Assembly (NCBI RefSeq): GCF_964355755.1
Contig: NC_092678.1
Coordinates: 3,488,422 to 3,552,421 of the forward strand
Length of the DNA stretch: 64,000 nucleotides
Direction: 5' to 3'
From: Antedon mediterranea
Taxonomy: Eukaryota > Animalia > Echinodermata
The notes under the pieces were generated by a model. It had not been told where the DNA came from and did not search any database. It saw nothing but the letters and a program-made list of their open reading frames with translations. This document shows positions 419 to 61,991 of the stretch, one piece after another (position 1 is the first letter of the stretch; the number at the start of each line of letters is the position of its first letter). The position numbers were made by a program, and so were the translations under genes.

Positions 419-2785
419 TTCCTCCGACTTGTGGTATATTGATTCCTACCCCGTTATCGGTTTCGTTGACGTTACCGCTTTCTTCTACTTCTGGTGCTGC
501 AGTTGTTACCATTAGTGCTGGATCCCCAAGGGAAGACTCTATTCCCATTACTACTGATGACAAATCTGAAAGTAATACAATAAGTGTGTCTTGTTTTAAG
601 CTCTGTCTACACTATCAAACTTTATGTGACAAAAAAAAAAAAAAACCTGTGATGTGCCCATGTATGGACATGAAGATGTCATATCACCACCATATTTTGG
701 CTCATAGATAAATCACTTTTTTTTGTGTCAAACTAGTTTGATAGTGTAGATAGAGCTTTAGATTGTTCTTTCTTTTGTCAGATATTTTACGGTTATTTAA
801 ATACCATACTATGATTCTTTTATCATTATCTAATGTTAAGTAGTCCAAAAATGAGTTTGTTTTATTTAGTGAAACTTACCTGATAACTGTGGTGGATCTA
901 TTTCCAATACAGATCCATCCTGTGTTTCTCCTCCTCCTCCTTCTTCTTCTTCTTCACTACTACTGCTGCTATCTTCTGTATTCTGTTGTTGTTGTTGTTG
1001 TTGTTGTCTCTGCCTCTGCATTTTCTGTCGTAAATTTCTAAACCCATTAGGTCGTCTATATTCTTCACTGTCTGCGTCTCGAAGTTCTCCTGAAAGTAAA
1101 TAAGTCATATTTAGTGATATTGCCCATGCTAGTTCGCACACACACATACAGCGCCATATCTCGATTAGTCTAACCTATCTCATAATTAAGGCTTCGTTGG
1201 TAGCTGGGCTGCATTATTTTTTTCCTATCAGGTTAAGGCAGAAGTCATGAATACACGAACCAAATTGGGCCCTATGGCAATTGAAAGAAGTTTTGAAATA
1301 TATTTGTCCAAAGTTGTTTTATATTGATAATTTGTCGTCTACCATTCATAATTAACTTTTAGATTGATTTGATTTTTTTTACCAAACAATACAACAAAAT
1401 AAATTAAAAAATAGTATTTTTTATTAAAATATTGTTCAAAAAAGTGATTATCTATACTATACCATTAGCAGTTCAAAAGTTCATAAATTAATTTCCATAT
1501 ATTTTTTATAGAACAAATATTCTGACTAATTCAATACAAACCTTCTCTTAAGCTCTGTCTACTGCGCTATCAAACGTTATGTGACAAAAATGTGATGTGC
1601 CCATAGGCCTATATGGATATGATGATGTCACACTCATTTTGTAAAACTAACTAGCTTTTCCATAATAGTATATCTACAGGCAGTTTTCATACATGGTTAC
1701 CATGGTGAATTGATATTTATTATTTTTTACATTGGTGAAATTAATAATTATACATTGTAATGTTTTTGTTTGGTAATGCAATGTATATAAAAAGATTGAA
1801 AAAAAAAAATCCAAAAAACTTCGTAGTTCAAATGCTAACAAATTAATGTTCATACAACACTTGTACTTGTATTATTTATAGTAATTGTTAAAGAAATCCC
1901 CTTCCAACACATGCAGCCTTGGTTTATTATTTCAAATTTCGCAGGCTATGATTTAAAAAAAGTGGTATGATTCAGATATTAATTTTACATGCGTCGTAGG
2001 ACTGACTTTTACGTTGCTTCCTGTTCTTTATTAGTTTCGTATTAACAGCATTTAAATTCAATCAAAATGAATGAAGTGGTTGTATACAGTGACAAGAGGT
2101 ATATAATATTGAGAATATTGTTGAATTAATAGATTATTGGTTTCGTATTGACAGCATTGTTATTATTCAATATGATTAAAGATGTTGTGGTGTATTGCTT
2201 TGGTACAAGACAGTACAACTATTATATGATAGTGATATTTCAGTTTTAGAAATTACTCATTTCCCGTCTTGAAGTAAATAGCATATTTGTTTTGTTGACC
2301 AAGCATGGTTTTGGTATTTAGAACATGTGTATTACCATAATACTGAATAATGGTGTAGGCCTACTACATTGCTTCTTACCCTTTCTTGTTGTTATATTCC
2401 TCCAGTTTTTTTAGAATTGTTCTTCACTTCGTGGTTATTTTGTGATTTTTAATTTTACATCCGTGTTTGGGTGATTTGGTTTACTTTAGGTTTATGTTAG
2501 ATAAGGATTTTTAAAGGGATGTTAATTTTATTGTGTCTACAAAAAAATTGTCAAATTTGTTAATTAGTAATTTGTTATTTTATTTTTTCAGTTTTCTTTC
2601 TTATAAATGATGTTATTGGTAAGGGTGTATCAATTACAATAGTCGAACAATAATTGATAATGTTACAAGTAACATTAATATACATAGACCTAAATATAAA
2701 ATTTAAAAGTTATCTTACTTCCAGGCCTTGCTGCAGACAATGCAATCAGGACAAGAAGTATTGATAATAATGATAATGTATTCAT
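419..2785 (-). CDS. Gene I (partial, continues left of the window): secreted acidic/Gln-rich paralog of gene F
   Basis: Signal exon 2785-2719 (MNTLSLLSILLVLIALSAARPG), exon 1089-880 (poly-Q, EDSSSSSEEEEE), exon 565-419 (DLSSVVMG..GVGINIPQVGG; compare F's ELSSLSSVVG..GVNSPQVNG). Phase 1. The join between exon 1 and exon 2 is uncertain. Confidence 0.65.
599..757. mobile_element. MITE family 1 (PIF/Harbinger-like), full copy
   Basis: TIRs AGCTCTGTCTACACTATCAAAC / GTTTGATAGTGTAGATAGAGCT with TTA on both sides. Related partial copies near 1550-1650, 5705-5735, 9164-9307 and 15011-15105. Confidence 0.8.
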
Positions 2786-4088
2786 CTTCGACCCTTAATA
2801 AATGAAATAAAAAGATTTGATCAATAAAAAATAATACATAAGATACAAAAACGACACATTTTACCACACCCGTACTGATATTACCTCAATCTGCGGACCA
2901 TTACTCATTACCACACGGCCTATACAGTAATAGCATTCACTCAAAAATATTAACAAAGAAACAATTTTTTTTATTTTATTTATTTAAAAACATATTTGTA
3001 CAGGATAAAAACATATCAGATATAGAGATTGTACCTGTTTTACATAATATCCTGTTTTCAGAGCAATAGATTAAAAAACATTTAAAAAGAAGACATTCAA
3101 AAACTTACAATAAAACTGTAAAAATCACAATACAAAGACAAACAATATTAAAGTGTTTTTAAAGAAGAACATTGACTTGATTAAATAACGGCCATATCCT
3201 AATAATATTATACATGAACTATTTTGTAATTGAAAATGGTAACATAAAATTACAATAAATTGTTTTATGATTGGGATTTATTTGCGCGATTTAATTGATA
3301 ATGAATTTCCTAAAACATTTAATTTTGTGATTTCGCTTTATACGCTCATCATTAATATTGCTTTATATTACATCTACCCAGTACGGTAGCGGGCAATCGC
3401 TGTAAGATTAATTATCAGCTACAATTATATAGAAAATGACTAACTAAAATAACGACGTCAAAAATGGATTCCGATATTATAATGCTCTCCCTATCAAAAG
3501 AAATAAATATAGATCACATTTATATGACCTTTCAAAGGTTATATTAGTTTTTTTATTAGGCCTATGCAAAATAAGTTTGTTTCGGTTTTTAACAATAACT
3601 TCTGTGAGTAGGAAAATCAGTATATGAATTTAGATTTTCTACTTATGTAATTGGCACGTACATATTTAGGCCTATCATTTATGTAATTGCATACCTACAT
3701 ACTAAATACACATTAAATATAGACACATTACCTTTATTTACTGATCACTAGCTGCTTTCAAATTGTTCTTGCTTTCCGTCTTGTCAAGTTGTTTAAAATT
3801 ATTAATATCTTGTAGTATACCTTATGGATCTGTATATATCCGTTTAGTTTTAAAATCGTCAAATCACCATCCTTTACGTAATAAGTTCATTGCGTTTTCA
3901 AGAAGTTTGCGTTTATCCTCCAACTTAAACGTCACTGAATTATTTATTGTAATTTCCTTTTACATTTGACCTTGTGACGTTGAAACTTTCTTCCTTAAAG
4001 ATTTAATTTCCGAAGTGCACTTTTCTGTTCGGCTTACATTCGTTTATTTTTGGTTCTAACATACTTGGTATTCAATATTAATAATGGC

Positions 4089-4560: not shown

Positions 4561-5473
4561 CTATCTACTCGAGCCCCTCGGTTGTGGTACGCCATGACAA
4601 CCCGCCTTGCACGGACCAGATGATCCTCGTCTAGCTCGCCTGATCTCGTCAAGAACATCATGTTTATCAACCTCTACCGACTGAGAATAAGCTTGCACGT
4701 TCGCCAGATTTGCTGCAGCGACTAAAATAAAACACATACTAATAGATATATGATAATAATACTTTCAATAGTTCTTTTTGTCAATGGTATTGCAGTGGCG
4801 CTTACATTTCTAACATAGGCGGATCCATTTGCGATGCGCAAGATAAGCCATTAGGTTAAATTCAGCACTTAATTTCACAGTTTTTAGGCTCTTATTAAAA
4901 GAAATGGAACAATAGAACTAACAAGCAATATTTGAAATGTTTCGTTAAATAATTTGGTTTTAATCTATTCCATTTCAGATTTTAATTACCGTTTTGATTA
5001 TTAGAGTTTGTGTTTCCTTGAGCGGAATCATCATCTTACCTTCGAGTCACTATAAATATTGTAATTATTTGATTAGTTGATTTTATTCGGCTTTTAGAAC
5101 CTTAATTATTGTGGTTTTTTATTTAATATATGTATTGGTTGCCTAATTTCGGTTTAAGGTTAAAAAGATAATCATTTTTAAAGTGATGTTTAGGTTAATA
5201 TTTTGTGTGTACAGAAAACTAACTTTCAGTCATCAAGGAAAACTTTGTATATTATCTGCCAAAGTGTACACATTTTTATGTCATCGTTGGGCCACTTATG
5301 GCATCTTATTACTGATTTGTTTTGCAATATTTTTTACAATAATTAAAAAGTCATTAATGATGTACATACATTTCAATAAATATATATATAAACAAACATT
5401 AATCTTACTTGCAGTAAGCTGCAGATAACGCAATCAGGACAATAAGTATTGGTAAAAAGCCAAATGTTTTCAT
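4561..5473 (-). pseudogene. Gene H: probable chimeric pseudogene (signal exon like gene I, exons 2-3 like gene G)
   Basis: Exon 5473-5409 (MKTFGFLPILIVLIALSAAYC) is 2 nt shorter than the gene I paralog, so it ends in phase 2. Exon 5049-4990 has TAA at 5036-5038 where G has CAA. Exon 4721-4561 (VAAANLANVQAYSQS..RRARRGSSGPCKAGCHG..*) is intact. Confidence 0.6.
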
Positions 5474-6695: not shown

Positions 6696-7639
6696 TCATT
6701 TATCTTCTCCCGACTGAGAATTAGCTTGCACGTTCGCCAGATTTGCTGGAGCAGCTAAAATAAAACAATATATATCAGTAAGTATGATAACATAATAAAT
6801 GTAATTTAAATTAACTGTACTTTGTTTCAATGGTTGTACAAATTGGAGTGACATCGCTGAGTAAATGATGAGCTAAATGTAAATAATACGGTGAAAAATA
6901 TATGAACTGTAAATGATACATTATATATATTTTAAATAATATATAATAAACGTTTGGTGATTTAATGTAGGTTGATTAGTATTCCATTGAGATAGCGCCT
7001 TCTGGATGGCTCCTTAGGTCATTTACATATGTGCGCAATTTAGCCAAGAAGGCTGAGTCGCAGGTCATTCCCCACCATTTTTTATGTACGTAATTTATTT
7101 TTTAGTTGTTCCAAATAATTACCGTTTTCGTTAGAATTTGTGTTTCCTCCGGCGCCGAGTTGAGCGGGACCTCCATCTTCGTTAGAGGCTGTACCGTCGT
7201 CTTGCCTTCGCGCCCCTATCATTAGAAAAGTTTATTATGTTAAATATTTATTTCAACCCCATCAAACAGCGATATTTCCAATTGAATGATACATTTTGTG
7301 ATCAATTAAGTTTATAAGATGAAAAACATTTTTCTTTTTTACTCTCCTTTTTATAAAACCATTAGGGAAAAAAAATATATGTCTGATTTAAATGTATACA
7401 GGTTAAAAAATATGTTTGTAAACATTGAAACCCATACAATTAAGTCTTTTGCAACTTACTTATATAAAGCTTATGACAAAGTAGGTCCGAAAATAATATA
7501 GATTTTATTATGAGAAATAGGCCGGGGGCCATTGCTTATTGAAATAAAAGAAAGAAAAAAAAAGAAAGAATCACACTTTCTGAAAGTATCACTAAAATTT
7601 CGTTTGGAAATAATTAGAATAACGTATATAATGTTCTTC

Positions 7640-7674
<35 letters not shown>

Positions 7675-8206
7675 CATTTATTTACCCAGGGTGGCCCAAA
7701 CGGTTAAAAACTGGTTTCCATTGGGGCCCTGCATTTTACGTGCAAAAGCAATAGCACACAGTTAATAATGTATAACTCACTGTCCTAATTAAAAGAGGGC
7801 AATCCTGTTCACAGACGATCATATACACAGGTATAAACACAAATAAGATTTTAAATAAATAAACATTTGCATGCATGTCATTATTATTAGTATTATTAGA
7901 AAGATATGTATTAATACATTAGAACTCCTACAAAGGGGATAAGTTCTTGACCCAGTAAGTTCCCCTTAAATGAGTGTCATAATAGTTGGTTGACCGGAAT
8001 GTTTATTAACATGCTCTTCATTTGTTTAACAGTAACGGTATCACCTTAATAGGGTATCACATATATCATGATTGTCATCTTAATAAGGGTGCCCCAAAGG
8101 GGCTGTACTGTATTTGTTCATACATCACTATACTATGAATCTTACTTTCTCGTCTTGCCGTCACAGCTATAATAAGAACGAGGCATAAGAAAAACGAATA
8201 ACGCAT
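6696..8206 (-). CDS. Gene G: small secreted precursor, about 70 aa, with RRERARR cleavage site
   Basis: Exons 8206-8146 (MRYSFFLCLVLIIAVTARRE), 7215-7123 (RARRQDDGTASNEDGGPAQLGAGGNTNSNEN), 6754-6696 (AAPANLANVQANSQSGEDK*). Phase-1 GT-AG; minus-strand AATAAA at 6306-6311. Confidence 0.65.
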
Positions 8207-10783: not shown

Positions 10784-13136
10784 TTAAGGCATCTGGTCGC
10801 CTACAGGATCTAGATTACCTAAAAAAACAGTAATAATAATATTAATATCAAAATATTAAATATAGTTTTTTTTTTTATAGTTTTTTGCCCTTTCATCATG
10901 CCGGTGCCAGGTGGTAATTACCTGGTTCTTTAGCCGTATCCGGTGCCAGTTGCTCAGTCTTACACTCCCCTTTATGTTCTACAAAGAACTCTGGTGTGTT
11001 GTTTCTGCACATTACGGCTTCAAAGACGCATTGTGAAACATAGGTTTCCCCGTCACTACCACACACGGCGTCGTTTTCGAGTGGACATGATGTCCTACAG
11101 GTCGGTTTTGCTGGCTCAGGAGTGATTTTTTGTGTAGTTTTAGTTTTTTCCGTTGCCCTCTTGGCATTTGTCACCATTGCGCCGGTTGTGACGACTGTAG
11201 TAAATAAATGTCACCATTAACTTCAAATTTTCCCTCACTACCATTGATAATATTAATAGATCATATTGCATAGTTGTATACTGGTATACTTAACTTAATG
11301 CAATATTACCAACATCGTCACCCGTATCTCCTTCGATGTTACCTTTATTAACGTAACGTATTTACGTAATAAATAAACGTGACGTCTATGTTCTTTCCAA
11401 TTCATGCATGGTAGGTTGCCCACTCATTAATTTTTGTTTCCCTTCATGTCAATATAGATGATCATATTTTATTTCTAGATACTTATACTAGTGATAAAAA
11501 AGGCCACCTGATTTGATTAGTTAAAATAGGCCCCAAAACAGAACGAAATACAGATAATTATGAACATCGCAATATATTAGCACAATATATCTTAAGGTAG
11601 AAAAGTTTTACCATTAACTTGAGGTGAGTTTACACCAGGGGCTGGGCCACTTCCAGCGTCTCCTCTATCAACTTGACGTGGCGTAGAGGTATCACGAACG
11701 GTGGTGGTTTCACGGACTGTGGTGGTCGTTTCAACTGGCATAGCTATAGTTGTTGTCGCAAGAGGGATTGTAGCAGTAGCAATCTCTACTGGAGGATCTG
11801 TCATGGATGACTCTGCTACTAGACTGCTAGGTCCCACCACTGAAGATAAAGATGACAACTCTACCAAAGAAAAAACATATTATTAAATCACCGTTTAAAG
11901 ATGCTTTGTCCTTTAAAATATGATATAGATGAATAAACTCGAATAAACTTGAATAGGCCATTTTGCAGTGTTAATAAAGTTATTCATTCCCATCTCAAGA
12001 TGTTTTAATGCACTTGTTGGTCAAAGTATTAACCATGTTAAGTTCCCATCTTTACAGAACCTCCTCAGACATTGATCAAGTATATTAGTGCATTATATAT
12101 TTTTCAAACTATACCAACCACTTGTAAAACTGCTTTCATTGCTTTCACTAGAGTCTTCCTCCGAACTACTGTCGTCCTCGTTTTGTACATTGTCTGCAAA
12201 TTTGTTCTCTCTCTCGTAATTTTCGTTTTCATTGTCGTTCACTGTCAAAGAAAATATACGTCTTATATTATAATTGCATTACAATAACAACAAAAACAAC
12301 AACATTATGTAAAATCTGTAAAAAGTCCCCTTACCAACCAAGATTCGAACTTTTTAAGAACTATATGTAAATGTCCTTATCACTGCGGATGTCATGTTCT
12401 AGCTCAATTGATTACATGATTTATTTTATTTATTTTTATTTTATGTCTTTAGGCAATGTGGCCAAGGATTTCCAATAGTGAATTAATCACTGTCCTATCA
12501 GATAGGTGGTAATCCCCCTGATACAGGGGCTATTGTGTGAACCAGTTCACCGGGGTAACCCCCTACTCTTTTTCGAATAATGAACTGGGTTCTTTAAAGT
12601 ACACACAGGTTATAACTATGTACACTGGACCTACGGTTTATAGTCCTTATCCGAGAAGACTTGTTCCACCACCAGAACTAGGAGCGAGTCGGCCTCGAAC
12701 CCTTGCCGATGTTGTTGTTGGCTCTTTAGGTACGGTAAACGGCGATATACATACGGTAAACGAATGATATATTTTAATTGTACGCACCTACTGCACAGAT
12801 ATTACATATTTTGTACTTCTCCTGATGATTGTGCCAAATTTATAGTATTTAATAGTGTGACTATTTAGATCTATAGTTTTAATTATTTAGAATGTACAAT
12901 ATATTTTATATAAAATGATAGCCAAATGAAAAGAAACTTCTAACATTTAATGAACACTGTACTTCGTACTTGTGTGATATTCTTTCAGTAATTGAATAGT
13001 ATAGTTTTTACTTACTTTGACCATATCGGAGAAAATGCTGAAAGGGGTTGTTATTGTACCTCTGGTAGTAAGGGGCAGCTGAGGTCATGGTTATAAAGGC
13101 TAGGCCTAGTACAACAAGCATACTTAATTTCGTCAT
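10784..13136 (-). CDS. Gene F: secreted acidic/mucin-like protein with one Kazal domain, about 266 aa
   Basis: Exons 13136-13016 (MTKLSMLVVLGLAFITMTSAAPYYQRY..), 12241-12119 (EDDSSSEEDSSES), 11860-11612 (Thr-rich, RGD), 11194-10922 (CRTSCPLENDAVCGSDGETYVSQC..), 10818-10784 (TAA). Phase 1; 801 nt. 5'UTR exon donor near 13590. Confidence 0.82.
12420..12705 (-). mobile_element. tRNA-derived SINE with a conserved central domain, in a gene F intron
   Basis: B-box-like GGGTTCGAGGCC on the minus strand near 12691-12702 and an A-rich tail near 12420. The core CCCCTACTCTTTTTCGAA..GGGTTCTTTAA..ACCTACGGTTTATAGTCCTTATCCGAGAAGAC resembles Nin/Deu-type invertebrate SINEs (recalled, not searched). Confidence 0.6.
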
Positions 13137-40869: not shown

Positions 40870-42608
40870 TTAAACGTCTGGTAGTTCAGTTGTGCCAATC
40901 TCTAAGATTTCAACAACAACCACCTCTTCCTCCATCGGTACTTCCGTTGCTTCTTCTTCTTCTATTACTTCCATTGATTCTTCTTCTTCAGGTATTTCCA
41001 CCACAGGTTCTGTTGGACGTTTCTTTTTCTTCGGAATGTCGTCAGGACATCTTCCAGAATGAGCAATCTCTAGTTCCGGAGCGACGCGGCAAGCCCGTCT
41101 TCGAACGGCGCACGCTGTCGTGTAAGTACGTCCGTCTGTCCCACAAACCTTTGACAACTTCGTTCCTGTTTCACATTTTTTCGGACAGTGCTTAACTTCA
41201 ACAACTAAAACACATAATATAACAAACTTTACAAATCCATAGAACAAGAAAAGTCAATCACAACAATTTAAAAACGGGTAATTTTGTCTGACCACCAATT
41301 CCTTAAATTTCGCTCGTTTTCAGTTATGACGTCGAAGGGACAAATGAGTTTAGTTCTGAAGTCATACTCTTCAAGGTAAATTCAAAGTGACTTAGAAGTT
41401 TAAAGTACTTTCATAAGAACAAGCAGTTTCTAAATTTAAACCTTTAGTGTGGTAATTATGTAACAGCAACATGAATAATAGTCCTGCTTCGAGCATATTG
41501 TTAGTTTTAAAATATTTAGATACTAGAATGAAATTTTTGAGTATTAAATACGCGCTTGCTTGTGTGGCGCATAGAGATATTATGTTCACTATAATATCTC
41601 TATGTGTGGAGTCACTTACCTCTGCATTTCCGGTCATGTGCTTTTTCCAGCATAGGCAAATTCATTTTACATTTGCGGCGAAGCAGATGACAGAGATGGC
41701 GATAGTTTCTATGGTCATTTCCACAAATAGGACCGATGCTGGTGGTATTATCTGGACATTTCCTAAGAAGCGATTGGCAATCTAAGTCCATCGGCTCAGC
41801 AGCTAGAATGTATACAATTTGAAACAGTTAATGAATATCATGAAACAAGTAATATTTTGAGTCAAACCATCTTAATTTATTTAAAAAAATATTCATTTTG
41901 AGAATAAATTAGATAATGTAAAAATATGTGTATGTAAACGCGTGGCTCTGCATAAACGGCGTCCCATAATATACGGCATGTCTGCTGCCACCTATAATTC
42001 ATATTGTGACATCGTTTCATTTTAACAACATCTTTATACAGGATTACACAATCAGGTAAAAGAAAACCTGTTTTGCATTGTGGTCCTTTCTTGAATACAA
42101 AAAAATCATGGAAAAAAAGTTTGTTTTGTGGAAAAAAAATGAGATCTGTATCTAGCTTTGAATGAAGTAATTGGTAATTGAATATGTATTTTCAGTTGGT
42201 AGGTTATTCCATATAACTTTGAAGGACGAGTTTATCTTACTAATGGTATAGTAGGGTATTGTTATATTGAATTATATTGTCAATATATATATATGTCAAT
42301 AACATGTAAACTGTATTACTTTAAATGTATGTGTATTGTTTCTGGGGTCTTGAGACAAGAAACTTGATTTCTTCTAGAGAAGACCCCAAATGTTGGCTTA
42401 TTACTATGTTTTCATTTAAATAATGTACACACCTGTATATTATACTGTATAATGCCATTGTTGAACAAATAAATGTTTTTTGAACTTGATCTCATTGACC
42501 ATAAATCATAAAATAACGAATGCCAAATAAGATATAATGAAACTTACCAATACTAATAACAAATGTTACAGATATAAGTAACAGAAGAATATTAGCGAAC
42601 GCCGCCAT
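40870..42608 (-). CDS. Gene D: secreted protein with 2 Kazal domains and a Glu-rich tail, about 192 aa
   Basis: Exons 42608-42548 (MAAFANILLLLISVTFVISI), 41802-41620 (DCQSLLRKCPDN..ICGNDHRNYRHLCHLLRRKC..HDRKC), 41204-40870 (Kazal plus EEEESMEVIEEEE, TAA); 579 nt. Confidence 0.82.
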
Positions 42609-44776: not shown

Positions 44777-47332
44777 TCAATGATTTCTGTAAAAGAAATC
44801 ATAATCAACTAGATTTGCTTTCATGTATTTATCACGAATTCTTAACCTTTTACATTTCTTCCGCTTCTTTCTTAATCCTAACACCACGTGACAGTCTCCT
44901 TTGTATGCTATGTGTAAGTTGTTGTTGAAGAAACATTTTGCTTGTTGGAATGCGCACATGTTTGGAAATGTAGTAAAGTATAACCCGTTTGTCGCACATA
45001 TGACGTTATTGTAATCGGTACAAGCTAAGTTGCATAACAGTGCTGGTTCTGAAATAGAAACATCAATAAATATTGATAATCATAATGATATTGAACTATT
45101 GTGTAATTGTATAAGTTACTGTTGCTGTTATTATTATTAGTCTTGATATTCGTATTGATATTATTATTATTACTGATACTTATTTTTATTTATTATATAG
45201 GCTTATGCCTAGTGATTGATATTTATTAGTGATTCCGTTTATTGATAATGTTAGTGATATCGTACTTATATTTCCATTATGTGGTGTGATGCGGTATCCT
45301 TGCTATTTCTTTAAAGATGTATTGTCCCCCAAAAACATGATTAATTATTAAGATTAATTAAATCAGACTCTGAATAGGTTATTTTGTAGTTTTAATAAAG
45401 TTAATCCCTTCCGTAAAAATTAAAAGAAAAATGTTTTCTTTTTTGAACTGACAAAATAAATGGTAAAATTCAACCAAAAAACCATTGGCTGGCAGCCAAT
45501 TTGATTATTATTATTATTACATTTTTTCAGGTAAATAATTGTTTTTCGGTTCAATTTTTTTTCAAAGTGGATAACTATTATGTGACATTAAAATGGCATA
45601 TGGCATAACAAACACAAATTAAATTTTTTCAAGGGGGCAATATATCTGTAAGAAACCAATACAAATACAATTTTATAAAATATAAATATATCAAATTGCA
45701 GGTGTCCCTTACTGATTGGGCCATCGAGAAGAAGTTCAAGGATTTTGTAAAATATTTGACGATCTAATTATAAATATCAAAGATTCAGGAAACGTACCAC
45801 AAAACCTGCTACTGTTTTCGGTACTATTTTCGTACGCAATAATGTATTAATTACTAATTCACAAGTAATTCAAGGAAGTCACCTTTGAATTGTTATCTTG
45901 TTGAAACTATATAACTTCCTGTTTAGGCCACTGCTATGAAATTTTATACCAAATCATAATTATTTTTGAAAATTGTTGTCACGAATGGTATGAATTGTTA
46001 TTTTTTAAAAGTTCAAGTAACTTTAGTTCAGTAGTTATGATTTATATTTATTATACCGTCTTGTGAAAATATACAGTTTCCCGTGTAGGCAACTCGCAAT
46101 GTGTAGTCGTGCGTAATACAGGCCACCACTCGTAGTACGCAAGCGGATGAATACGTTACTCCATCAACTCCACAAACAGGTGCTGATTCCAGTGGACACT
46201 CTTCCAGACATGCTTCGGTCGTGGGACCTGGGAATACTAGGATAATATGATATATAGATTTACCATAAAAATACAAATAGTTTATAAGCAAATAGGTTGT
46301 ATGATTTTGGTGAACAATTTTGTATGATTTTGATGAACAATTTTTGTTTTCTCACAAGGAAATATGATATCACTGTAAAGTGTGTTTTTGTGTGTATGAT
46401 GTAATTTAAAATACGAAATATAATAAAATAGTTACCTGGTGGTACTAGTTCAGTAGGAGGAGGCAGAGGTGGAGAAGTGACTGGTCTGGAGCCTAGTCCT
46501 GGTCGAGCACCACCACGAGATGGGGGTCGTAATGGTGGTTTCATAGGTCCCCACGGTCTTGAAGGAAAGCGTGATGGTTTATCTTCCCTTGACTCTGATT
46601 CTTCTTCCGATGATGAAGATTCAGTTTCCTTAGTGTCATACGACAATCCGGGATACGACGAATATCGTCCCCATGATGAATAATCACTAAAATCGTCATC
46701 ATTTTCTTCACTATCACACAATCTTAATATATCTAAAACTATAGTTGTAAAATAAATTATTATATAAATGTATATACAAAATATATACGTACGTTGAAGC
46801 TTCTTTACAGTGACACAGTGTTATTGAAACGTGTTTTTATAATGCTATACTTTAATTCAATTCAATTGTAGCACGTTATACTAGTAGGGAATTGTGTCAG
46901 TAGGCCCTATACCCTAGTAAAATTTGATAAACATTATGCATTAAGATTTATTATCTAGTAATCCATCCCCAAGATAAAGTTTATAGGTTATGGAATTTTT
47001 CAGTAATTCTGTTATTATTGTGAACTTTATTTTGACCTTCATGTGTACATTCCAGGCCACTGATTGGTTACCGAAATTCACTTTACACACCCATCATCAC
47101 CACTTATCTGACTTTTTTGGCACAACCTTTAAATAGTTTGGTAGGTGACTTAAACACGTGACTATAACGTCACATAATTGTCGATTGGAATAATTTCAAT
47201 TTTTTAAATTTTTTAATGTGATTTATTTTTAATTAAGCAAAACTTACTTGATCGTCTTCTGCGTGTTTCGATTTCTGGTAGTATTACAGAACATATCAAG
47301 AACAAGATCAACACTTTTCCAGAGTTTTCCAT
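44777..47332 (-). CDS. Gene C: secreted acidic/Pro-Arg-rich protein with 2 Kazal-like domains and a basic tail, about 274 aa
   Basis: Exons 47332-47248 (MENSGKVLILFLICSVILPEIETRRRRS), 46732-46436 (DSEENDDD, ESSSSEEESES, PSRPWGP), 46227-46057 (Kazal), 45048-44777 (divergent Kazal CNLAC..ICATNG..FPNMC..C..YKGDC, then RKKRKKCKRLR). Phase-1 introns; 825 nt. Confidence 0.8.
45311..45651. mobile_element. MITE / non-autonomous DNA transposon
   Basis: TIRs TTAAAGATGTATTGTCCCCC ... GGGGGCAATATATCTGTAA; related fragments near 11895-11990 and 55120-55260. Confidence 0.65.
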
Positions 47333-49151: not shown

Positions 49152-52100
49152 TTACTGTAAGTCTTCAATTTCGGACTTTAAGAATGCAAGTTCTTTCAAA
49201 ATGTTAGATAGTGCTTCGGTTAGTTCGCTAGCCAAGAGAGTCAACCTGTCGATAGTGTTATTGAGTTCGTTAATCTCTTCAGGTACTGCTTCTGTTAGAT
49301 CACCTACAGTTGTTTTAGGAGGGCAGAATGTGTTTTCTGGGCAGTCGTCTTCTTCTGTGGGTGTGGGTGTGGGTGTGATTGTTACTTCAGGAGTTAAGGT
49401 GACTACAGATAAGGTAGTTAAAGAGGCAGTGGGTTTGGTTGTTTTACTTTCTGATTCGGTTTGTTGGAAGTCTGTCTTTACAGTTGTTGGGTTAAACGTT
49501 GTCGACTGGGTTGTTGGTGGTATTTGCGATTTCTTTGGTTTCTTTGTACACTTTCCTGTGTATGCTACAGTTACATCTGTTCTCAGTAAGCATGACTTTC
49601 GTCTTAGCCCACAAGCAGAATTGTAAGTTACTCCATCACTTCCACATACTCGGTCCGCTTTTTTAGGGATTGGGCATTTTTCGCCGCAATCTTTGGCTAA
49701 AAATTGGAAATAGTAATTATTAAGTTTTTTATCTCTCAGTGTTTCAATTGTTACCCTTTGAGCATACTTAGTTGAGACTTTGCAGTTATGAATTTCCTGG
49801 CCTTGTGGAAAACTAAAAATGAACTATTAACTTACGTGTAGGCCGGAGCGTAGTGGTTTTGGTTGCTTCAGATGTAGGCTTTTCTTCTGTCGTTTTATCG
49901 GAACTTGCTGGTGTAAATGTTGGCATCGGCGATGTGATTTTATTGTTGTCGTCTGCTGGACTTTCAGACGTAGGTTCAGTAGGTTCAGTGGTCGGTTCAA
50001 CCCCTGAAGTTGATATGGGTTCACCAGCAGTCGTTGGAGATGATGTTGGTTCCTGGTCGGTTTGTTCCTGTTTCGTTGGATCCGGATTAGTTAGTTCCTG
50101 GTTAGTTGGATCTACTGAGTCTAGATTGATTGGATCCGGATTAGCTGAATCCTGATTATTTGGATCCTGATTGGTTGGATTCACTGTGTCTTCCTGTTCG
50201 TTTTCTTTACTCTCTGATTCAGAATCATCGTTGTCATCTGGTGCATTGGTTGATCTAACCACTGGTCGTACCTTAAGGCATCTTCCTTTATGCACCACTG
50301 CGACGTTTCTATTCGCTTCGCATGCACGTTTTCTCAGTAAACATTCAGATTGGTACGTTTCTCCATCAGTACCACACACTCGATCTCGTTTCTGTGGTTT
50401 TGGACATTTCCTTTTACATTTTGGTTTACCTATACGCAAAAAGGAAAAAGCCCAAAATATATATTAGTAGATCAAACAGTATAAAACAGTAAGATACTGC
50501 TTATAGTTTTTCGATTATGTCGGACTACTGAAACATTTCCTTTATATTGCATGGTCTATCTGAAGTTACACTTCTAATGTATATATTTCTTAACATTGTT
50601 GTCAATATAAATTCTCTTTATTTTAAAGAATATTTCAAACGTCATTTCTGGAATAGTTTCTGAATAGTTTATTTTTAGAACTTGCTATAATATGGTTTAA
50701 CCCAATCATCAGTATGTTAGTAATGGTGCATGGTCTATCTGAAGTTATACTTCCAATAAATATATTTTTTTAACATTGTTGTTAATAAAATTCTCTTAAA
50801 TTAAACGTAATTCTGAGAATAGTTTTTGAGTATTTTCAAAACTCGCCATTACGGTTTAACCCAAACATCATTATGTTAGTTAATCTATTGTTAGTTAGTT
50901 AGCCTTATTTCTGTAAATGTATAAAAAGACTATATTAATTGAGTGAAGAGACCGAAAGACTCCACGTTAATAGAGATAGTTTGTCAAGGTTCATGAGGTC
51001 ACAATTTGCACTTAATTGAGGCCATGTTTAATTGTAGTTGAATTGTTTCCAAATTGCTAATTTGTGACAAAGCATTTCTTAATTTTATAAATATCTATGT
51101 AGCTAGGATGTAAACCACCAGGCCCAGATACATTCATGTTCAGGTTCACATCCGTTCGACGATATGAATATTAATAACTAAATAATAAATATAATAAATA
51201 AGTATGCATAATTATAGTAGATATATATATATAACTCTAACTTATTACAGTACTTTTCGAGTAGGCCTCGATTTTTTTTAGCGTCACACGAATATGTTCG
51301 TACATGCAATGGTAAAGGATTATTTTTAATCAGTACTGTATTTTAACAATGGAAACTCCAAACTGAAATCACAATATTGAAATAATAATATATTATTATA
51401 TTTATTTTCAGAAATGCGAATTGCAGTACTGTTTTAATATTTTACGATCAAATGGAAGGAAACTGTTTTAGCAACAACCTGTAGCTCTCGTGAAGGTAAG
51501 GATGTGTCTTTTATCGTACTGTTTGATATATTTTATTTACTATGTTTCATGGTGTTAATTTAAGCAACCAAGATTTCGTACAAATAATGGTGACCCTAGG
51601 CCTAGAGTTTCCTTTGTTTTTTTTTAGTTGGCTTACTTTTAATCGGTTCTTTTCGGCCTGATGGGGTTCCCCTTGGGCCTACGATTTCATAATTTCTAAA
51701 CTTCAATGGTTGCCTTTCTATATCGTTAATACATCTGCCTCGGTATTCAATAATCAAACGGACACCTTTCAGACAGCTGAGTCTCCGCAGAAAGCAAGCA
51801 GAGATGTACGTTTGTCCGTTTTTGGCGCAGACAAAATCGGCTACAGTCGGTTGAGGGCACTGTTCACAATCATCTTGACATTAAATATATCAATGTTTAG
51901 TGATTATTGTTATACTATAATTATATAATAAGATAAGATATTTCGGTAGTAGGAATTTAGTCAATACAATCAAAATATTCCAATATTCTTTTAAGTGTTC
52001 ATCATTAGGCCTACATTATAATAAAACAAATAATTACCGTCGGAGCCTTCTCTTTCATCCGGACGTACGATTGTTGGGGTGACTGGTAATCCAATTTCGT

Positions 52101-54033
52101 TCCCATCTGGTTGTTCTCTCTCGGTCACTGGAAGTGGAGACGGAGGAGGACGCCGTTGCGGTAATAACCTGGGTGGCGTTGTTTCTGGCTGTTGTAATTT
52201 ACAGGACCCTTTGTGAACCGGGAAAATATCTAGTTCTGTCCGACATGCCTTTCTTTTTAGCTGACATTTTGAAGGATACGTTTTACCATCGCTGCCGCAA
52301 ACCTGCTGCGAAACATCGGACTGTTTTGAACATACTTTGCATCTTGTCGGACGGCCTATAATAAGCATATAGTCAGTGTTGGTGAATAATATTATTACAT
52401 GTTTCTTAATATTATGCATTATTGGAAATAAGAATACAGTTTTCTGAGATGAGATAAAATAAAGTAAAATTTAAGGTGAATGTGCTACTGTACTGATATT
52501 TTAAAATAATGTAAAATGCATTTTTAAAATGATTTATTTAAAAAAATATTTGTTCTTATTGTCTGCTATGTTCACTAGTTTGAGTACCGTAATTAATAAT
52601 GTGTATACGTATGATTGCATGTACAGTACTACTCACTTCCTTCCTGGTCATTGTCCTCATCTACTTCACTTGTGGCATCTTGGATCGATGGTGTTAAGAG
52701 CTCTCTTAAGTTGTTCAAACCACCAGTTATGTTATCATTAGCATCCTGTTGTTCACTTGAACTTGAACTCAAAGTAGTATCCTCTTCTGATTCTTTCCGT
52801 CCTTCATTTTCCTCCGGGCTTACCGTGGTCTCATCTAATATGTTCGAGGGTGTGACTGAATCAAAACACTTTCCACTGTAGGCTACAGTTATATTACTTC
52901 CTTTTACACAAGCTTTCCTCTTTAGGATGCATTTTGATGGGTAGGTTTTCCCGTCGCTACCGCATACTTGCCGGCCTAAGGATTTTGGTATAGTGCACTT
53001 TACACACTTTCCTCCTATTACAAAAAATTGTCAACATAACATTTTTTGGGTAAAATCTGTAACTTTTTATATATAAGTTATATTTTAAACAAATTGGTTT
53101 TTTATGTAATAATACATAAAATGTTTGTCGATTTGTCAAGTTACCGTACCTTCTGTGGGTGCTTTTGTTGTGTCCTGAAGATCTGAAAGACTTTCGGGAG
53201 AGGTGTTTCCTAAAGACACCGACGTAACTGGTGGTGTATCGATCGTTGTGTTAACTGGAGTTGTTCGCTCTGGTGTCTGGGTGGTAGTAGCTCTTAATAC
53301 TCGTTCACATTTACCCTTGTAAGCAAGTTTAACATTCTTTTCCTGTAGACAAGCTTTTCGATTTAATACACACTCTGATGAGTATGTTTTACCGTCTGTT
53401 CCACATACCTTTTCGTCGGGACTGGGCTTAGAACACTCGGGACACGAATCTAATTTAAATTACCAATAAATTAAACTTAACAATAGGCCAAATCATTTCT
53501 CGTATTATATACAATAATTTAAGCAAATAATAATGATCTAGTTGTTATTTTGTTGGAAGGATTTTACGTTTGTTTGAGTGAATAACTCATAAATTATAGT
53601 TGAGGGCAGTATTGCCTAATACTATGGAACAATCATAATCATATTAGAATAATACACTTTTTGTTTTTGTAATAATAGTATTACAAAAGTAAGTAAAATA
53701 CCTTTTGCTGCTAAAGTCTCTCTACACAATGCAAAGACTACGATGAATACAATAATGCAGGTTTTATTTGTATTTCTGTGAATAAAATACGGTTAATTAG
53801 AATACTTTCGTAGATCGTTTATTAATTTATTTTTAAATATCAAGAAAAGGCAAACATTGAAAGTTAATAGAAGTATTTTCTGCTGAGTTTCCTAAAATGC
53901 TTTAAAAATTGAAAGTCTAGAGATATCTTCAGGTTGAGTTACATTTGCAATTTTTGCTATTAAACTTACAAATGTTTTAGTGGCCTAATTTTCAAATGTT
54001 ATTAATATTAGTTACCTACCTTATCATTTTCAT
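49152..54033 (-). CDS. Gene B: secreted protein with 6 Kazal-like domains, mucin-like linkers and a C-terminal coiled coil, about 819 aa, 8 coding exons
   Basis: Exons 54033-54020 and 53775-53702 ([29 protein letters not shown]), then 53449-53150, 53014-52637, 52355-52038, 51873-51637, 50429-49836 and 49696-49152 (TAA). One Kazal per downstream exon; total 2460 nt. Confidence 0.83.
50547..50882. repeat. Diverged tandem duplication, about 180-bp offset
   Basis: TGCATGGTCTATCTGAAGTTA...GGTTTAACCCAA..TATGTTAGT occurs twice. Confidence 0.75.
51637..51873 (-). CDS. Gene B exon 6, Kazal domain (not in the ORF track)
   Basis: aag|[48 protein letters not shown]...EPIK|gtaagc; 237 nt, phase 1-1, weaker AAG acceptor. 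Confidence 0.8.
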
Positions 54034-55844: not shown

Positions 55845-55847
<3 letters not shown>

Positions 55848-58182: not shown

Positions 58183-61100
58183 TTAGCCGTTTCTTATACA
58201 CATGCCTCGATGACGTACTTGTAACGACGGATTATAAAGATGACAAGCGAAGCTTTCTAATATGCACGGTGATGGGTAGTTCAAGTTATCAGTACCACAC
58301 ACAGGATTAAAATCTATCGGACACTCAAATGAGCAAGTGTCTGTGAAATATGATAAGATTTTAAACGTTATGAAGTTCAGTTTGTGACAAATCATCTCAA
58401 TTTCTTATTAAGAAATCTAATATTATATTATAGTATTTTGAGTCATCACTGTTTGATTTGACCTTCTGTACAATAATCAGGAATGTACAGTGACGATTTA
58501 ACTGTTTTAGTTGTTTAAAAGTAGCATTTCCGATGAGGATGAGCAGGCTATTTCGTACAACCTGGCAATTCTCATCTAAAATTGTATTGGGTAGCTTATT
58601 TATTATTGAACTTACCTCCCCATCTATCTGAAGGTGACTCCGTTGTTGGTGGGGGAGGTCGTGTCGCCTTAGGCTTTGGTTTCGGTCGAATAGGCCTAGT
58701 AATTACAGGGTTCGATGGTTGTGGATCACATTTCCCCATATAACTTGTTCTTAGTGAGCTTCTTTTGATGCATGCTTTGATCTCCAGAAAGCATTCAGAT
58801 GGGTATGTCATTCCATCGGTACCACAAACCATGTCACTGATGTCAGGTGGTGGACAGTTGGTACATCTCAAGTAACCACTGTTAACTTCTTTTCTTTGAC
58901 TTCCGCATGGTCCTTCATGATCCAATTTGGTTCGAATTCCTCGCGTACATGCTCGACGATGGAGAACACATCGAGATGCGTATGTAATCCCATCATTACC
59001 ACATACTTTATCGGATGAGACCGGTGTTGGGCAAGTGGGACAACGATCAGTAGCTGGAATAATGATTGGTAAATCAGATTAGTTTATGGTTGCATTATTG
59101 TATACTAGGAAAGTTAAAAGTAGTTAATCGGGAAATTCAGAAATATAAAACAAATAATAATTAAAAACAAGCCTACTTACGTCGTTCCGTAGGTGCCGGC
59201 ACATCGGCAGGTGGATATCTTGAATTGGGCTCTGGAAACAGGTTAGCATTAGGCCGATCTTCAACGATGCAATCTCCTTGGTGTTTTACTCTTATATCAG
59301 TGCCTTTAATACATCCCTTCAAGTTCATTAAACACTCGGATGGGTAGGTGATATCATCAGAACCACATACTGAGTCCCAGGAAGATGGAATACGACACGA
59401 AGTGCATGGCTCGTTTGAATTTCCCGCGTTCGTGCCTCTAGCCTCAACTGGACATTCTCCATTAAAAGATACCCGGATGTCAACATTACGTAGGCAAGCA
59501 ATTCTCTCGAGTTGACACGAAGATGGATATGTTTTTCCATCGTTTCCGCATACAATATCTTCATAAGCTGCATTTGGACATTCTCCGCAAAGTTCATCTG
59601 TAAAGAAACATTTGTAAAGGTTTATTTTATGTAGGTAGCTTCAGTAGGTTATACTTATATGAAAACATATTAAACAGGTTTAATTAAGATGGGGGTTGGG
59701 GTGAGGTGGGAAAATGAATCATTTAACAATGTGATCCTAACTGTTTACATTGCTTTTACGCACACGCTTCTTCAGTGTATAATTTCCGTACGCATGCGCA
59801 TATTTAAGATTTACTACAGTTTTATATGTACGTCAACCAATGTGATAAAAAAGGTACTCACAGTTTCCGGATCCATAATCCTCTTCTGGTTCAAAGACGG
59901 GTGGTGGCTTTGGCGTTGTTGGCTCGTAGTCTATTTCAGGAATAACCACTGTAAATGTCTGCTTCTTTCTCTTTGGCCTTTCCTCTGCTGTGCACTCTCC
60001 AAGATGGGCTACGGATAACTCCAGCTTAAAAATACATGCTTTCATTATTATGTGGCAAGGTGACGGATAGTCAAGACCATCAGTACCACAAGTGACGTCT
60101 TCTGGTCCATAATCAGTAGCAATACACACGGTGCATTCTGAATACTTTCGCTTCTTCTTCGACTTTGGTGGTTTTGTAGCTGGAGTTTCAACCTCAACTT
60201 CTGGAACATCTGGAACGTCTGGTATAGGATCTAAAACTGGAGACGTCCTGGATACGCATTTACCCATATGAACAGGTCGAATGTTTACGTTCGTTAAACA
60301 TGCGTATTTATCTAGCCAGCAAATAGATGGATGCGTTTTGGAATCGCTTCCACAAACGGTATCGGATGCACGTGGTAATTCGCACTCTCCGCAATTTCTA
60401 GTTTCTGGAGAAAAAAACAACAGTTTCTTGATAGCTTAGTTCAAGGTAGGTCAAGTAATATGGATATAATCTGTCGCTGACCATCGGAGCTTCGGTTTCC
60501 TTTTGCCTCCGGATATTGATTTGGTTATTAAATAAAAATAAATCGTTATTATGCCGATTGAAGGATAAATATTTTACCATACGCTCAATTAAAACGAACA
60601 CACAAATTAGCTGAACAAAAATCAGTTCTAATTTGTATAAATAACAAATGATTGATTGAATAATGTTACTAATGTTTTAATTATTTACCTATGTATGTCT
60701 AAACAGAAATGTTATGTAATAAATTTAACAATACATTTAAAATCTGTAACGTAACACACCAACTTACCATACGGCCCTCGTTGTGTATGTTCTGGTCCAA
60801 CAACTGCCGGATTTCCCTGTGGATTTTCCGGTTGTCGATAGCGCCGTGTAGTAGTTGGTGGTAAAGTCGTTGTCGTCGGTGGCATGGTGGTGGTTGTTGG
60901 GGGCAATGTGGTGGTTGGTGGTAATGTGGTTGTTGGTTCAGGTGTTGTTGATGGTGGTGGGGGAGGTAGTCTTGTTGTACTTCGGCACTCTCCTTTATGT
61001 TTAACAGAAACTCGAACCCCTATTACACATATTCTTACTTTCATGTAGCATTTTGAGGGGTATGTCAGGCCGTCAGTACCACATACACGATCTGATCTTA

Positions 61101-61991
61101 ACGGTTGAGGACATGCTTTACAACCTGTGAACATATTTTAAAATAAATTTTACTATTTAAAAATGACAAGGTCATTCGTGTAACTTTTTTTAATACAGCA
61201 AACCACTAAAAAGTGAAAGTGAAAAACTGATTTTATATCAATCGAAATTAATTACAGAAATATAAATTGGTGAAAGTTAAGTAAAGTGTCAAGAACTAAT
61301 TTAAAGTAAGACTAGAAGGTGTTGACCTACAAAAATCTTCATAGCGGGATTATTACTAATAGGCTTAATTAATAAAGTAACATAAATGGCTTAGGGTCTT
61401 GTAAATTTTGTTCAAGTTTAAGTTCCGTTTTTGTATATCTGTCCAAAGAATTGGAAACAATTGCATATTTATTTTAAACATATTGCAATTATTGGTTATC
61501 GTAGACTCACCTTGCTTTCCTGGCTTTCGTTTTTTACTACGACGAGTAGTTGTTGGTAGCATTGTCGTTGTTGGTTCAGGCGTTGTAGACGGAGGTGGAC
61601 GTCGGGGAGGGATTTGTCTATGACTCGAACAACTGCCTTTGTGAGCTACCTTAATAGTTAGACCCATAACACATGCTTTAACTTTCATGTAACACTTGGA
61701 TGGGTACGTCAGACCATCTTTTGCACATACTCTATCGTTGACGGTTGGTAATGGACATGGCTTACAAGCTTTTGCTATTAAAAAAAATTGATGTGTGTAA
61801 TGTACTTACGGATATTAAATGTATTGTGTTTAATCAACTAGGTTTATGGGAGAAGCCACCACACATTCTCCAAGTACCCCTAAATCATGTTTTCTGTATT
61901 ACAGAATATAAAATAATTAATTCTTACCATTTGTACAGATAAATAAAGAGGCTGTGACGAGAGCCAAACAGGTCAACCGAACGTCTATCAT
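58183..61991 (-). CDS. Gene A: secreted protein with 9 Kazal/follistatin-like domains and Pro/Thr-rich linkers, about 746 aa, 7 coding exons
   Basis: Exons 61991-61928 (MIDVRLTCLALVTASLFICTN, signal-like), 61774-61511, 61124-60768, 60404-59862 (2 Kazal), 59597-59181 (2 Kazal), 59053-58616 (2 Kazal), 58340-58183 (TAA). All introns GT-AG, phase 1; total 2241 nt. Repeated C-x2/3-C...VCG(T/S/N)DGxTYPSxC...C...(H/Y)xGxC motif. Confidence 0.88.
59181..59597 (-). CDS. Gene A exon 5, two Kazal domains (correct frame is not in the ORF track)
   Basis: cag|..ELCGECPNAAYEDIVCGNDGKTYPSSCQLERIAC...PCTSCRIPSSWDSVCGSDDITYPSECLMNLKGC...PTER|gtaagt; 417 nt, phase 1-1. Confidence 0.9.

What the first reader, a model, noticed from the sequence alone, without database searches (positions are those of the whole stretch)
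419..61991. Co-oriented cluster of about 9 secreted-protein genes (23 Kazal-like domains plus a giant repeat protein): candidate toolkit for a secreted biomaterial
Seen: every gene is on the minus strand, starts with its own signal-peptide exon and is built almost entirely from phase-1 exons. Modules include basic Kazal domains (LKRKAC, LRKRAC, VRRRAC), acidic Ser/Asp/Glu tracts, mucin-like T/P linkers, RGD motifs, a coiled coil and a 6050-aa Gly/Tyr-Pro polymer. Known: marine cements and shell or skeletal matrices combine phosphoserine-rich acidic proteins, Gly/Tyr-rich proteins and protease-inhibitor folds (e.g. sandcastle-worm Pc1/Pc3, mollusc shell matrix). Inference: these genes are co-expressed and together build one material (adhesive, egg or larval coat, cuticle, or mineral matrix), with charge-complementary parts.
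Basis: partly seen in the sequence, partly recalled or inferred. Interest (0 to 1): 0.85.

Follow-up and report, generated by a model that had tools for sequence, protein, structure and literature searches.

The report
Feather-star secreted Kazal matrix gene cluster
A feather star carries a row of eight intact-looking genes and one broken copy for predicted secreted proteins, built of small disulfide-knotted Kazal beads on floppy acidic or proline-rich strings and including a 6,050-residue tyrosine-proline repeat protein for which no relative was found; they are likely extracellular-matrix proteins of the kind seen in sea-urchin skeletons, but their tissue and any shared job are untested.

Summary
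In detail: nine co-oriented minus-strand loci, 23 Kazal domains, 36 of 37 introns in phase 1 and a 6,050-aa protein. Corrections: one locus (G8) is broken, G9 may run off the window, only 11 of 23 domains are clearly basic, and RGD is at chance level (2 seen, 3.1 expected). The animal is a crinoid: G1 and G2 have orthologs in Anneissia japonica (XP_033105664.1, XP_033105666.1), apparently neighbours there too. The one domain modelled is nearest to follistatin and hevin, and 18 of 23 have a loop longer than that of classical inhibitors. Contigs of one presumed RNA run fit splicing of G5, G6, G7 and G9. The closest precedent is a group of secreted Kazal/low-complexity proteins with consecutive gene numbers in sea-urchin tooth matrix (PMC2614417). 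Best reading (0.45): skeletal-type matrix proteins. Co-expression and a single shared material are not shown, and the sandcastle-cement analogy fits poorly (0.3% Lys in the repeat). The new element is G5's roughly 4,600-residue Gly-rich polymer with Tyr-Pro on an 11-residue grid, a possible cross-linkable elastomer (0.12).

The parts
58183..61991 (-). G1: 7 coding exons, 746 aa; signal peptide, 9 Kazal domains, Thr/Pro linkers, one acidic Gly-Ser-Gly site; pI 8.5
   Evidence: 68% identical (489 of 716 aligned) to Anneissia japonica XP_033105664.1 with the same 9 domains in order
49152..54033 (-). G2: 8 coding exons, 819 aa; signal peptide split over two exons, 6 basic Kazal domains (net +3 to +9), acidic and Thr/Pro linkers, C-terminal heptad repeat
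   Evidence: ortholog XP_033105666.1, 307 of 688 aligned residues identical, heptad conserved; a/d positions hydrophobic in 14 of 15
44777..47332 (-). G3: 4 exons, 274 aa; signal peptide, basic processing-type site, acidic Ser block, Pro/Arg block, 2 Kazal domains with 7-residue loops, basic tail
   Evidence: model from sequence only, no transcript or ortholog test
40870..42608 (-). G4: 3 exons, 192 aa; signal peptide, 2 basic Kazal domains, Glu/Val-rich tail
   Evidence: model from sequence only
18216..38626 (-). G5: 12 exons, 6,050 aa, pI 4.8; signal peptide, six short exons of which five carry an Asp-run-Ser-Gly-Glu motif and one an Asp-run-Ser-Gly, giant exon, 3 Kazal domains
   Evidence: last splice fits an RNA-run contig that starts at acceptor 18418 with 134 further letters, the upstream exon being 132 nt
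19897..36714 (-). G5 giant exon, 16,818 nt: about 25-Ser run, Tyr-rich block, then about 90 repeat units of 41, 50 or 60 aa (34774-21046) built on an 11-residue Tyr-Pro grid
   Evidence: no hit for its first 570 aa among 1.84 billion representatives; no usable Atlas hit; repeat model pLDDT 30
10784..13136 (-). G6: 5 coding exons, 266 aa, pI 4.5; signal peptide, acidic Ser block, Thr/Pro mucin-like block, 1 acidic Kazal domain with 7-residue loop
   Evidence: RNA-run contig covers 10267-10813 with 279 further letters, matching the 273-nt upstream exon plus 5
6696..8206 (-). G7: 3 exons, 70 aa; signal peptide, dibasic sites, short acidic Gly/Asn peptide; no Kazal
   Evidence: RNA-run contig ends at acceptor 6754, and a contig of the same depth lies on exon 2
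4561..5473 (-). G8: likely pseudogene; paralog of G7 (exons 2-3) and G9 (exon 1), first exon out of phase and a stop in exon 2
   Evidence: only an unspliced contig across its last acceptor is listed for the RNA run
419..2785 (-). G9: 3 exons seen, at least 141 aa; signal peptide, Gln run, acidic Ser/Glu block, exon resembling G6's mucin exon; 3' end not found in the window
   Evidence: RNA-run pieces end near the exon edges 565 and 2719 (table 3)

Best explanation
This is a tandem cluster of crinoid genes for predicted secreted, mostly disordered proteins studded with follistatin-type Kazal domains, and they likely serve as organic-matrix proteins at the skeleton's mineral-matrix interface. 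Shown: gene structure, domain type, repeat anatomy, crinoid orthologs of G1 and G2, and splicing-consistent contigs for four genes. Inferred mechanism: phase-1 exon duplication built the set; the disulfide-locked Kazal beads, about half with a basic helix, would bind sulfated glycans or acidic partners rather than proteases; the acidic Ser-x-Glu and Asp-run-Ser-Gly blocks would be phosphorylated or carry glycosaminoglycan chains and bind calcium; the Thr/Pro linkers would be O-glycosylated spacers; G2 would oligomerise through its heptad tail; and G5 would supply a long hydrated scaffold held together by regularly spaced tyrosines. The five domains with a 7-residue loop may still inhibit proteases and protect the matrix.
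For: Crinoid identity and conservation: G1 68% identical to A. japonica XP_033105664.1; G2 ortholog XP_033105666.1 on a record of the same length, 151,393 bp. Domain type: the alignment profile scores agrin and follistatin far above classical inhibitors; the model of G2 domain 6 (pLDDT 96) is nearest to follistatin and hevin, rmsd 1.6; 18 of 23 loops have 9 or more residues against 229 of 1,144 in other retrieved domains. [quoted passage not shown] Charge blocks alternate within G1-G4 and G6.
Against: No tissue, stage or proteome evidence for these genes. The source table of the most prevalent skeletal families in the A. japonica proteome paper has 17 rows and none for Kazal or agrin; the 280-protein list could not be read. 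The urchin test and spine paper's main text never mentions Kazal, and the sea-star skeleton yielded one Kazal protein. The domain tree does not resolve a link to the urchin protein, which was only one of 529 profile hits, and the tooth proteins are Ala-rich whereas these are Thr/Ser/Pro-rich. Crinoids have no teeth (recalled). The P1-equivalent position is conserved in only 4 of 14 ortholog pairs against 65% overall, as expected of inhibitors, though two other positions are as variable. Thr/Pro linkers fit mucus or cuticle equally well.
Confidence: 0.45

Rival explanations
1. The cluster makes a surface secretion: food-catching mucus, cuticle, egg coat or the larval attachment cement, with basic Kazal proteins cross-linking acidic, glycosylated chains.
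For: Signal peptides, mucin-like linkers (S+T+P 29-43% outside the domains in G1-G3, G5, G6), Tyr-rich polymer; crinoid larvae attach by an adhesive pit (bioRxiv 2024.01.30.577964).
Against: Kazal is absent from the main texts of the sea-star, sea-urchin and sea-cucumber adhesive papers checked (counts of 0); the repeat has 0.3% Lys and net charge -0.026 per residue, unlike the basic Gly/Tyr/Lys cement proteins (recalled); RGD at chance.
Confidence: 0.2
2. The genes are neighbours only because they arose by local duplication; they act separately, some as multi-headed protease inhibitors or growth-factor and glycan binders in body fluid or basement membrane, and build no common material.
For: Tandem origin explains co-orientation on its own (G7/G8/G9 share exons; a crinoid-only group of 20 domains at SH-aLRT 89); 5 of 23 domains keep a 7-residue loop, four with Leu or Ile at P1; P1-equivalent position variable; likeness to follistatin.
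Against: Most of each protein is low-complexity sequence; 18 of 23 loops are longer than the inhibitor type, one has Pro at the P1 position; linker sequence is conserved at 59% in G1; no follistatin N-terminal or EGF-like subdomain was detected.
Confidence: 0.2
3. The proteins belong to the soft connective tissue (ligaments, dermis); G5 is an elastomer cross-linked through its tyrosines and anchored to collagen or glycans by its Kazal and acidic ends.
For: Repeat has 28% Gly and 10% Pro, no Cys, 332 of 344 Tyr followed by Pro, 11-residue Tyr spacing in 176 cases; no fold predicted; echinoderms lack elastin (PMC10381214 abstract); resilin is cross-linked by dityrosine (PMC5082342 abstract start).
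Against: Composition only; weak constraint among repeat units (dN/dS about 0.66); no ortholog of the giant exon's first 570 aa was found although Anneissia proteins are in the related database; low pLDDT from ten near-identical rows is weak evidence of disorder.
Confidence: 0.15

Closest known systems
Sea-urchin tooth-matrix Kazal/low-complexity proteins, Glean3:17587-17590 and 22278 (PMC2614417; section 11 read)
   Same: Echinoderm, secreted, Kazal domains among alternating basic Pro-rich and acidic blocks, one member without Kazal, consecutive gene numbers that suggest a tandem cluster (my inference).
   Different: Those have 0-2 Kazal domains and 14-25% Ala; these have up to 9 domains, Thr/Ser/Pro linkers and a giant Tyr-Pro repeat. 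Orthology untested: their sequences are in .doc supplements that could not be read.
Anneissia japonica 'agrin-like' XP_033105664.1 and XP_033105666.1
   Same: Orthologs of G1 (9 of 9 domains in order) and G2 (heptad tail conserved), on records of the same length with accession numbers two apart.
   Different: Automatic name only; the G2 ortholog has one fewer N-terminal domain and one extra domain after the heptad. No ortholog of G3-G9 appeared among the 120 hits listed of 529.
Strongylocentrotus purpuratus XP_001181022.2 and brittle-star agrin/Kazal skeletal proteins (PMC4336488; passages read)
   Same: Signal peptide, long-loop basic domains first, Thr/Pro linkers, an acidic Ser-Glu patch, short-loop domains last; reported from skeletal proteomes.
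   Different: Domain tree gives no supported orthology; no giant repeat.
Follistatin, SPARC/hevin and agrin Kazal modules
   Same: Closest solved structures by sequence and by fold.
   Different: No follistatin N-terminal, EGF-like, EF-hand, laminin-G, SEA or NtA domain was detected in the exons scanned.
Resilin and high-molecular-weight glutenin repeats (glutenin recalled; resilin from abstract of PMC5082342)
   Same: Gly/Pro-rich, periodic Tyr, very long repeat array.
   Different: No sequence homology shown; rich in Thr and Asn; ends in Kazal domains; elasticity and cross-links untested.
Sandcastle-worm cement proteins Pc1/Pc3 (recalled)
   Same: Gly/Tyr-rich protein and a poly-Ser run occur.
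   Different: G5's repeat is nearly Lys-free and slightly acidic; poly-Ser is one run of about 25; the animal is an echinoderm.

Membership tests
Kazal-fold domain (PF07648) | Six-cysteine pattern and score above the curated cut-off | tested here: met
   23 domains, six invariant Cys; 20 of 20 Kazal-bearing exons above cut-off
Kazal-fold domain (PF07648) | Helix plus small sheet fold | tested here: met
   One domain modelled, pLDDT 96; TM 0.82-0.91 to follistatin and hevin; the other 22 not modelled
Classical Kazal protease inhibitors | Seven residues between Cys2 and Cys3 forming the canonical reactive loop (rule recalled; 702 of 1,144 retrieved domains have it) | tested here: not met
   5 of 23 have 7; 18 have 9-11
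Classical Kazal protease inhibitors | Inhibition of a serine protease | not testable with these tools
   Needs an enzyme assay
Agrin | Laminin-EGF, laminin-G, SEA or NtA domains besides the Kazal array | tested here: not met
   None in 27 exon translations; Anneissia orthologs carry Kazal families only
Follistatin | N-terminal domain and EGF-like subdomain before each Kazal module | tested here: not met
   No such Pfam hit; domains follow introns or low-complexity linkers directly
Sea-urchin tooth Kazal/Ala-Pro-rich group | Signal peptide, Kazal domain, alternating basic Pro-rich and acidic blocks | tested here: met
Sea-urchin tooth Kazal/Ala-Pro-rich group | High Ala content (14-25%) | tested here: not met
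   Ala 0.6% in G5's giant exon; linkers are Ser/Thr/Pro-rich; Ala not tabulated for the other genes
Sea-urchin tooth Kazal/Ala-Pro-rich group | Common descent | tested here: inconclusive
   Sequences unreadable; tree with another urchin Kazal protein unresolved
Echinoderm skeletal matrix proteins | Occluded in or lining the mineral | not testable with these tools
   Protein list of the feather-star proteome not readable
Spicule matrix proteins (SM30/SM50 type) | C-type lectin domain | tested here: not met
   No lectin hit
Sabellariid cement proteins Pc1/Pc3 | Basic Gly/Tyr/Lys protein paired with poly-phosphoserine protein (recalled) | tested here: not met
   Lys 0.3%, net charge -0.026 per residue in the repeat
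Sabellariid cement proteins Pc1/Pc3 | Co-secretion from adhesive gland cells | not testable with these tools
   Tissue of run X1 not on record
Resilin-like elastomers | Long disordered Gly/Pro-rich repeats with periodic Tyr | tested here: met
   (disorder predicted only)
Resilin-like elastomers | Dityrosine cross-links and elastic recoil | not testable with these tools
   Needs biochemistry and mechanics

The most novel reading that the evidence does not exclude
G5 is an echinoderm counterpart of resilin: a roughly 600-kDa secreted elastomer with Tyr-Pro cross-link sites on an 11-residue grid, an acidic glycan- or mineral-binding head and Kazal anchors at its tail, and the neighbouring genes supply the linkers that tie it to ossicle and collagen in crinoid joints. 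It would be a candidate elastic protein in a phylum that lacks elastin.
Probability: 0.12. Interest if true: 0.75.

Novelty: new variant of a known kind. Interest (0 to 1): 0.43.

Why it matters
Crinoids are the sister group of all other living echinoderms and have few of the lectin-type spicule proteins of sea urchins (PMC7351957, passages). A conserved crinoid cluster built on the same plan as the urchin tooth-matrix Kazal group would suggest that Kazal-plus-disordered-block proteins are an old or repeatedly used part of the echinoderm matrix kit, hidden under the automatic label 'agrin-like'. It gives named targets for an existing feather-star skeletal proteome and developmental series. G5 is a new, very regular natural polymer of interest for materials work whatever its tissue.

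Tried and rejected
No whole genome is held for the window, so copy number elsewhere and G9's 3' end were not checked. Splicing of G1-G4 and of G5's 5' exons and giant exon was not tested on reads; G1 and G2 rest on orthologs, G3 and G4 on sequence alone. No listed holder is on record as RNA; X1 is a guess, and it shows unspliced low-depth cover of introns and spacers as well. Contig depths differ widely between genes but cannot rank expression, so they were not used. The DNA runs X2-X5 may be the source sample and are no independent support. A search with one G2 exon found nothing among 1,216 candidates, although the profile search later found the ortholog, which shows that blanks for low-complexity queries such as one search are weak. 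Atlas: no usable hit for the G5 piece; only generic Kazal clusters under 0.9 for the G1 ortholog. Domain tree of 111 rows by 47 columns: quick method, 8 of 108 branches starred, origin unresolved; four long proteins were capped at 8 domains, duplicates dropped and one listed protein gave no rows. Long plus-strand frames over the repeat (up to 1,106 aa) are taken as a by-product of its codons. RGD rejected. A palindrome recalled as the Alx1 site occurs 12 times against 6.8 +/- 2.5, reached in 5 of 100 shuffles: not counted as evidence. No Rfam match. No earlier scan notes. A wide structural search was not run. Papers: no hit for the two Anneissia accessions or three SPU numbers; a six-term search on follistatin/Kazal biochemistry gave 0 papers and PMC3427181 (passages) did not help, so the view that follistatin-type modules are mostly not inhibitors is recalled.
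Full report
OBSERVATION. The window is 33-34% GC outside one 45% GC block and holds intron-containing genes. Reading the minus strand I built nine models and checked them in scripts. G1-G7 and G9 are open; all 37 introns are GT-AG; 36 are phase 1. A motif scan gave 23 Kazal-like domains, all minus strand; a profile of those domains found no 24th on either strand; Pfam Kazal_2 passed its cut-off in 20 of 27 exon translations, the other 7 being the low-complexity pieces, which matched nothing. Distribution: G1 nine, G2 six, G3 two, G4 two, G5 three, G6 one. A blind scan for hydrophobic first exons gave 10 distinct minus-strand donors, 8 of them my first exons, against 0.8 per strand in 30 shuffles. 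Corrections: G2's signal peptide is split by the one phase-2 intron; G8 is broken; G9 lacks a stop inside my model; 11 of 23 domains are basic (+3 or more) and 10 neutral or acidic; RGD is at chance.

ORGANISM AND CONSERVATION. One G1 exon retrieved Anneissia japonica XP_033105664.1 at E 3e-129; the next hit was at 1e-26. The full model aligns at 489 of 716 residues, 75% in the domains and 59% outside, with all nine domains in order. A profile of the 14 domains of G2-G6 retrieved XP_033105666.1, the G2 ortholog, with the heptad tail conserved. Both lie on a record of 151,393 bp and their accession numbers are two apart, so adjacency is probably conserved (inference). The window is thus a crinoid other than A. 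japonica. Only 120 of 529 hits were listed, so orthologs of the small genes may have been missed.

TRANSCRIPTION. Five runs hold part of G5; one, X1, is guessed to be RNA. Laid on 300-20290, X1 has a contig that begins at G5's last acceptor (18418) with 134 further letters, the upstream exon being 132 nt; one on G6's last exon and 3' flank with 279 further letters, against 273 plus 5 expected; one that ends at G7's last acceptor (6754), with a contig of the same depth on exon 2; and pieces that end near G9's exon edges. For G8 only an unspliced piece is listed. The joint table itself was filled by an interspersed repeat, so these are inferences from contig ends. The tissue is not on record, and unspliced background is present. 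This supports four models and says nothing on shared cells. G1-G4 were not tested on reads.

THE DOMAINS. The 23-domain profile ranks agrin, follistatin and FSTL3 above ovomucoid and rhodniin. An AlphaFold2 model of G2 domain 6 (pLDDT 96) is nearest to follistatin and hevin (rmsd 1.6, TM 0.82-0.91), then to classical inhibitors (TM about 0.7). The Cys2-Cys3 loop has 9 or more residues in 18 of 23 window domains and 13 of 15 Anneissia domains, against 229 of 1,144 other retrieved domains; 11 of 23 carry two or more Lys/Arg on the helix, against 5 of 37 in agrins. Five domains keep the 7-residue loop, four with Leu or Ile at P1, and may inhibit proteases. Against my reading, the P1-equivalent position is conserved in only 4 of 14 ortholog pairs (65% overall, binomial p 0.006), but two other positions are as variable. 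The proteins are neither agrin nor follistatin: their other domains are missing. The tree supports several one-to-one pairs with Anneissia and one weak crinoid-only group of 20 domains; it does not resolve origin.

G5. After the signal peptide come six short exons with Asp-run-Ser-Gly motifs, some visibly duplicated with their introns; such sites suit glycosaminoglycan attachment or Ser-x-Glu phosphorylation (recalled), and the urchin tooth protein phosphodontin has phosphorylated Ser-Gly-Glu repeats (PMC2830187). The 16,818-nt exon has no stop in 5,605 codons. Its repeat part (4,576 aa) has 90 units, mostly 41 aa (33), 50 aa (26) or 60 aa (19), with a 576-nt higher-order period; Gly 28%, Thr 15.5%, Ser 11%, Pro 10%, Asn 10%, Tyr 7.5%, Lys 0.3%, no Cys; 332 of 344 Tyr precede Pro, and 11 is the commonest Tyr spacing, 176 cases. 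In 86 of 91 aligned cores, the two Tyr columns outside my search anchor hold Tyr in 86 and 84 rows; overall dN/dS among units is about 0.66, so constraint is weak and units are not independent. No fold is predicted (pLDDT 30). The first 570 aa of the exon found nothing among 1.84 billion representatives and a 1,200-aa piece nothing in the Atlas; both blanks are weak for low-complexity sequence.

HOW IT LIKELY WORKS. Symmetric phase-1 exons let Kazal, acidic and linker modules be duplicated and shuffled locally (shown structure, inferred process). The products would be strings of disulfide-locked beads on glycosylated or phosphorylated disordered chains: basic beads binding sulfated or acidic partners, acidic blocks binding calcium, G2 oligomerising by its heptad (14 of 15 a/d positions hydrophobic), G5 forming a long tyrosine-linked scaffold. 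Where this happens is the open question. [quoted passage not shown] Against: no Kazal row among 17 prevalent families in the feather-star proteome table (I take the column headed 'O. japonicus' to be the feather star), none in the urchin test and spine main text, one protein in the sea star, and no demonstrated homology. Rivals: surface secretion or cement (0.2), unlinked functions including inhibition (0.2), soft connective-tissue elastomer (0.15).

NOVELTY. G1 and G2 exist in RefSeq under an automatic name, and Kazal-plus-low-complexity matrix proteins are known in echinoderms. I found no paper on this cluster: searches were made, limited to the open-licence library and to main texts. New here are the cluster view, the long-loop basic domains, the broken copy and G5. 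Verdict: new variant of a known kind, interest 0.43; the elastomer reading would rate 0.75 but has about 0.12 probability.

PAPERS SEEN. PMC2614417: section 11 whole, passages; supplements (.doc) unreadable and they hold the sequences needed for a homology test. PMC7351957: passages and supplement 3; the main supplement was too large and may list the skeletal proteins. Passages only: PMC2830187, PMC4336488, PMC5460417, PMC7853314, PMC10381214, PMC5831733, PMC3427181, PMC9382459, bioRxiv 10.1101/2024.01.30.577964. PMC2527298: term counts only. Search listing only: PMC7037938, PMC10120082, PMC5082342 (start of abstract). Recalled, from no call: Pc1/Pc3 composition, glutenin repeats, P1 numbering and the 7-residue rule, glycan and kinase site preferences, the Alx1 motif.

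Noticed in passing
window 590-745, 1542-1630, 9156-9307, 15036-15107: Copies of a short interspersed repeat; very deep cover and many loose ends in both runs suggest a high-copy genomic element.
   Followed up: partly
window 4083-4349: An imperfect inverted repeat of about 270 nt between G8 and G9, AT-rich, possibly a miniature transposon.
   Followed up: no
window 4561-4721 (minus): The last exon of the broken gene G8 runs on past the G7-like part into a basic processing-type site and a short two-cysteine peptide that G7 lacks.
   Followed up: partly
window about 12640-12760 (minus), first coding intron of G6: An open Thr/Pro/Arg-rich stretch that could be an unused or alternative exon; donor looks weak (read by eye).
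   Followed up: no
window 54092-54186, about 13592-13645 and near 39040 (minus): Likely non-coding leader exons of G2, G6 and G5, judged by eye from splice-like sites.
   Followed up: no
P0034 (XP_033105666.1) residues 860-910 against window 46073-46225: The Anneissia G2 ortholog ends in an extra short-loop Kazal domain whose best window match is G3's first domain; either a lineage difference or a merged gene model.
   Followed up: partly
window 23375-26692 (plus): An open frame of 1,106 codons opposite the G5 repeat, taken as a by-product of the repeat's codon use.
   Followed up: no
window 36189-36262: A trinucleotide array of about 25 copies encoding the poly-Ser run of G5.
   Followed up: partly
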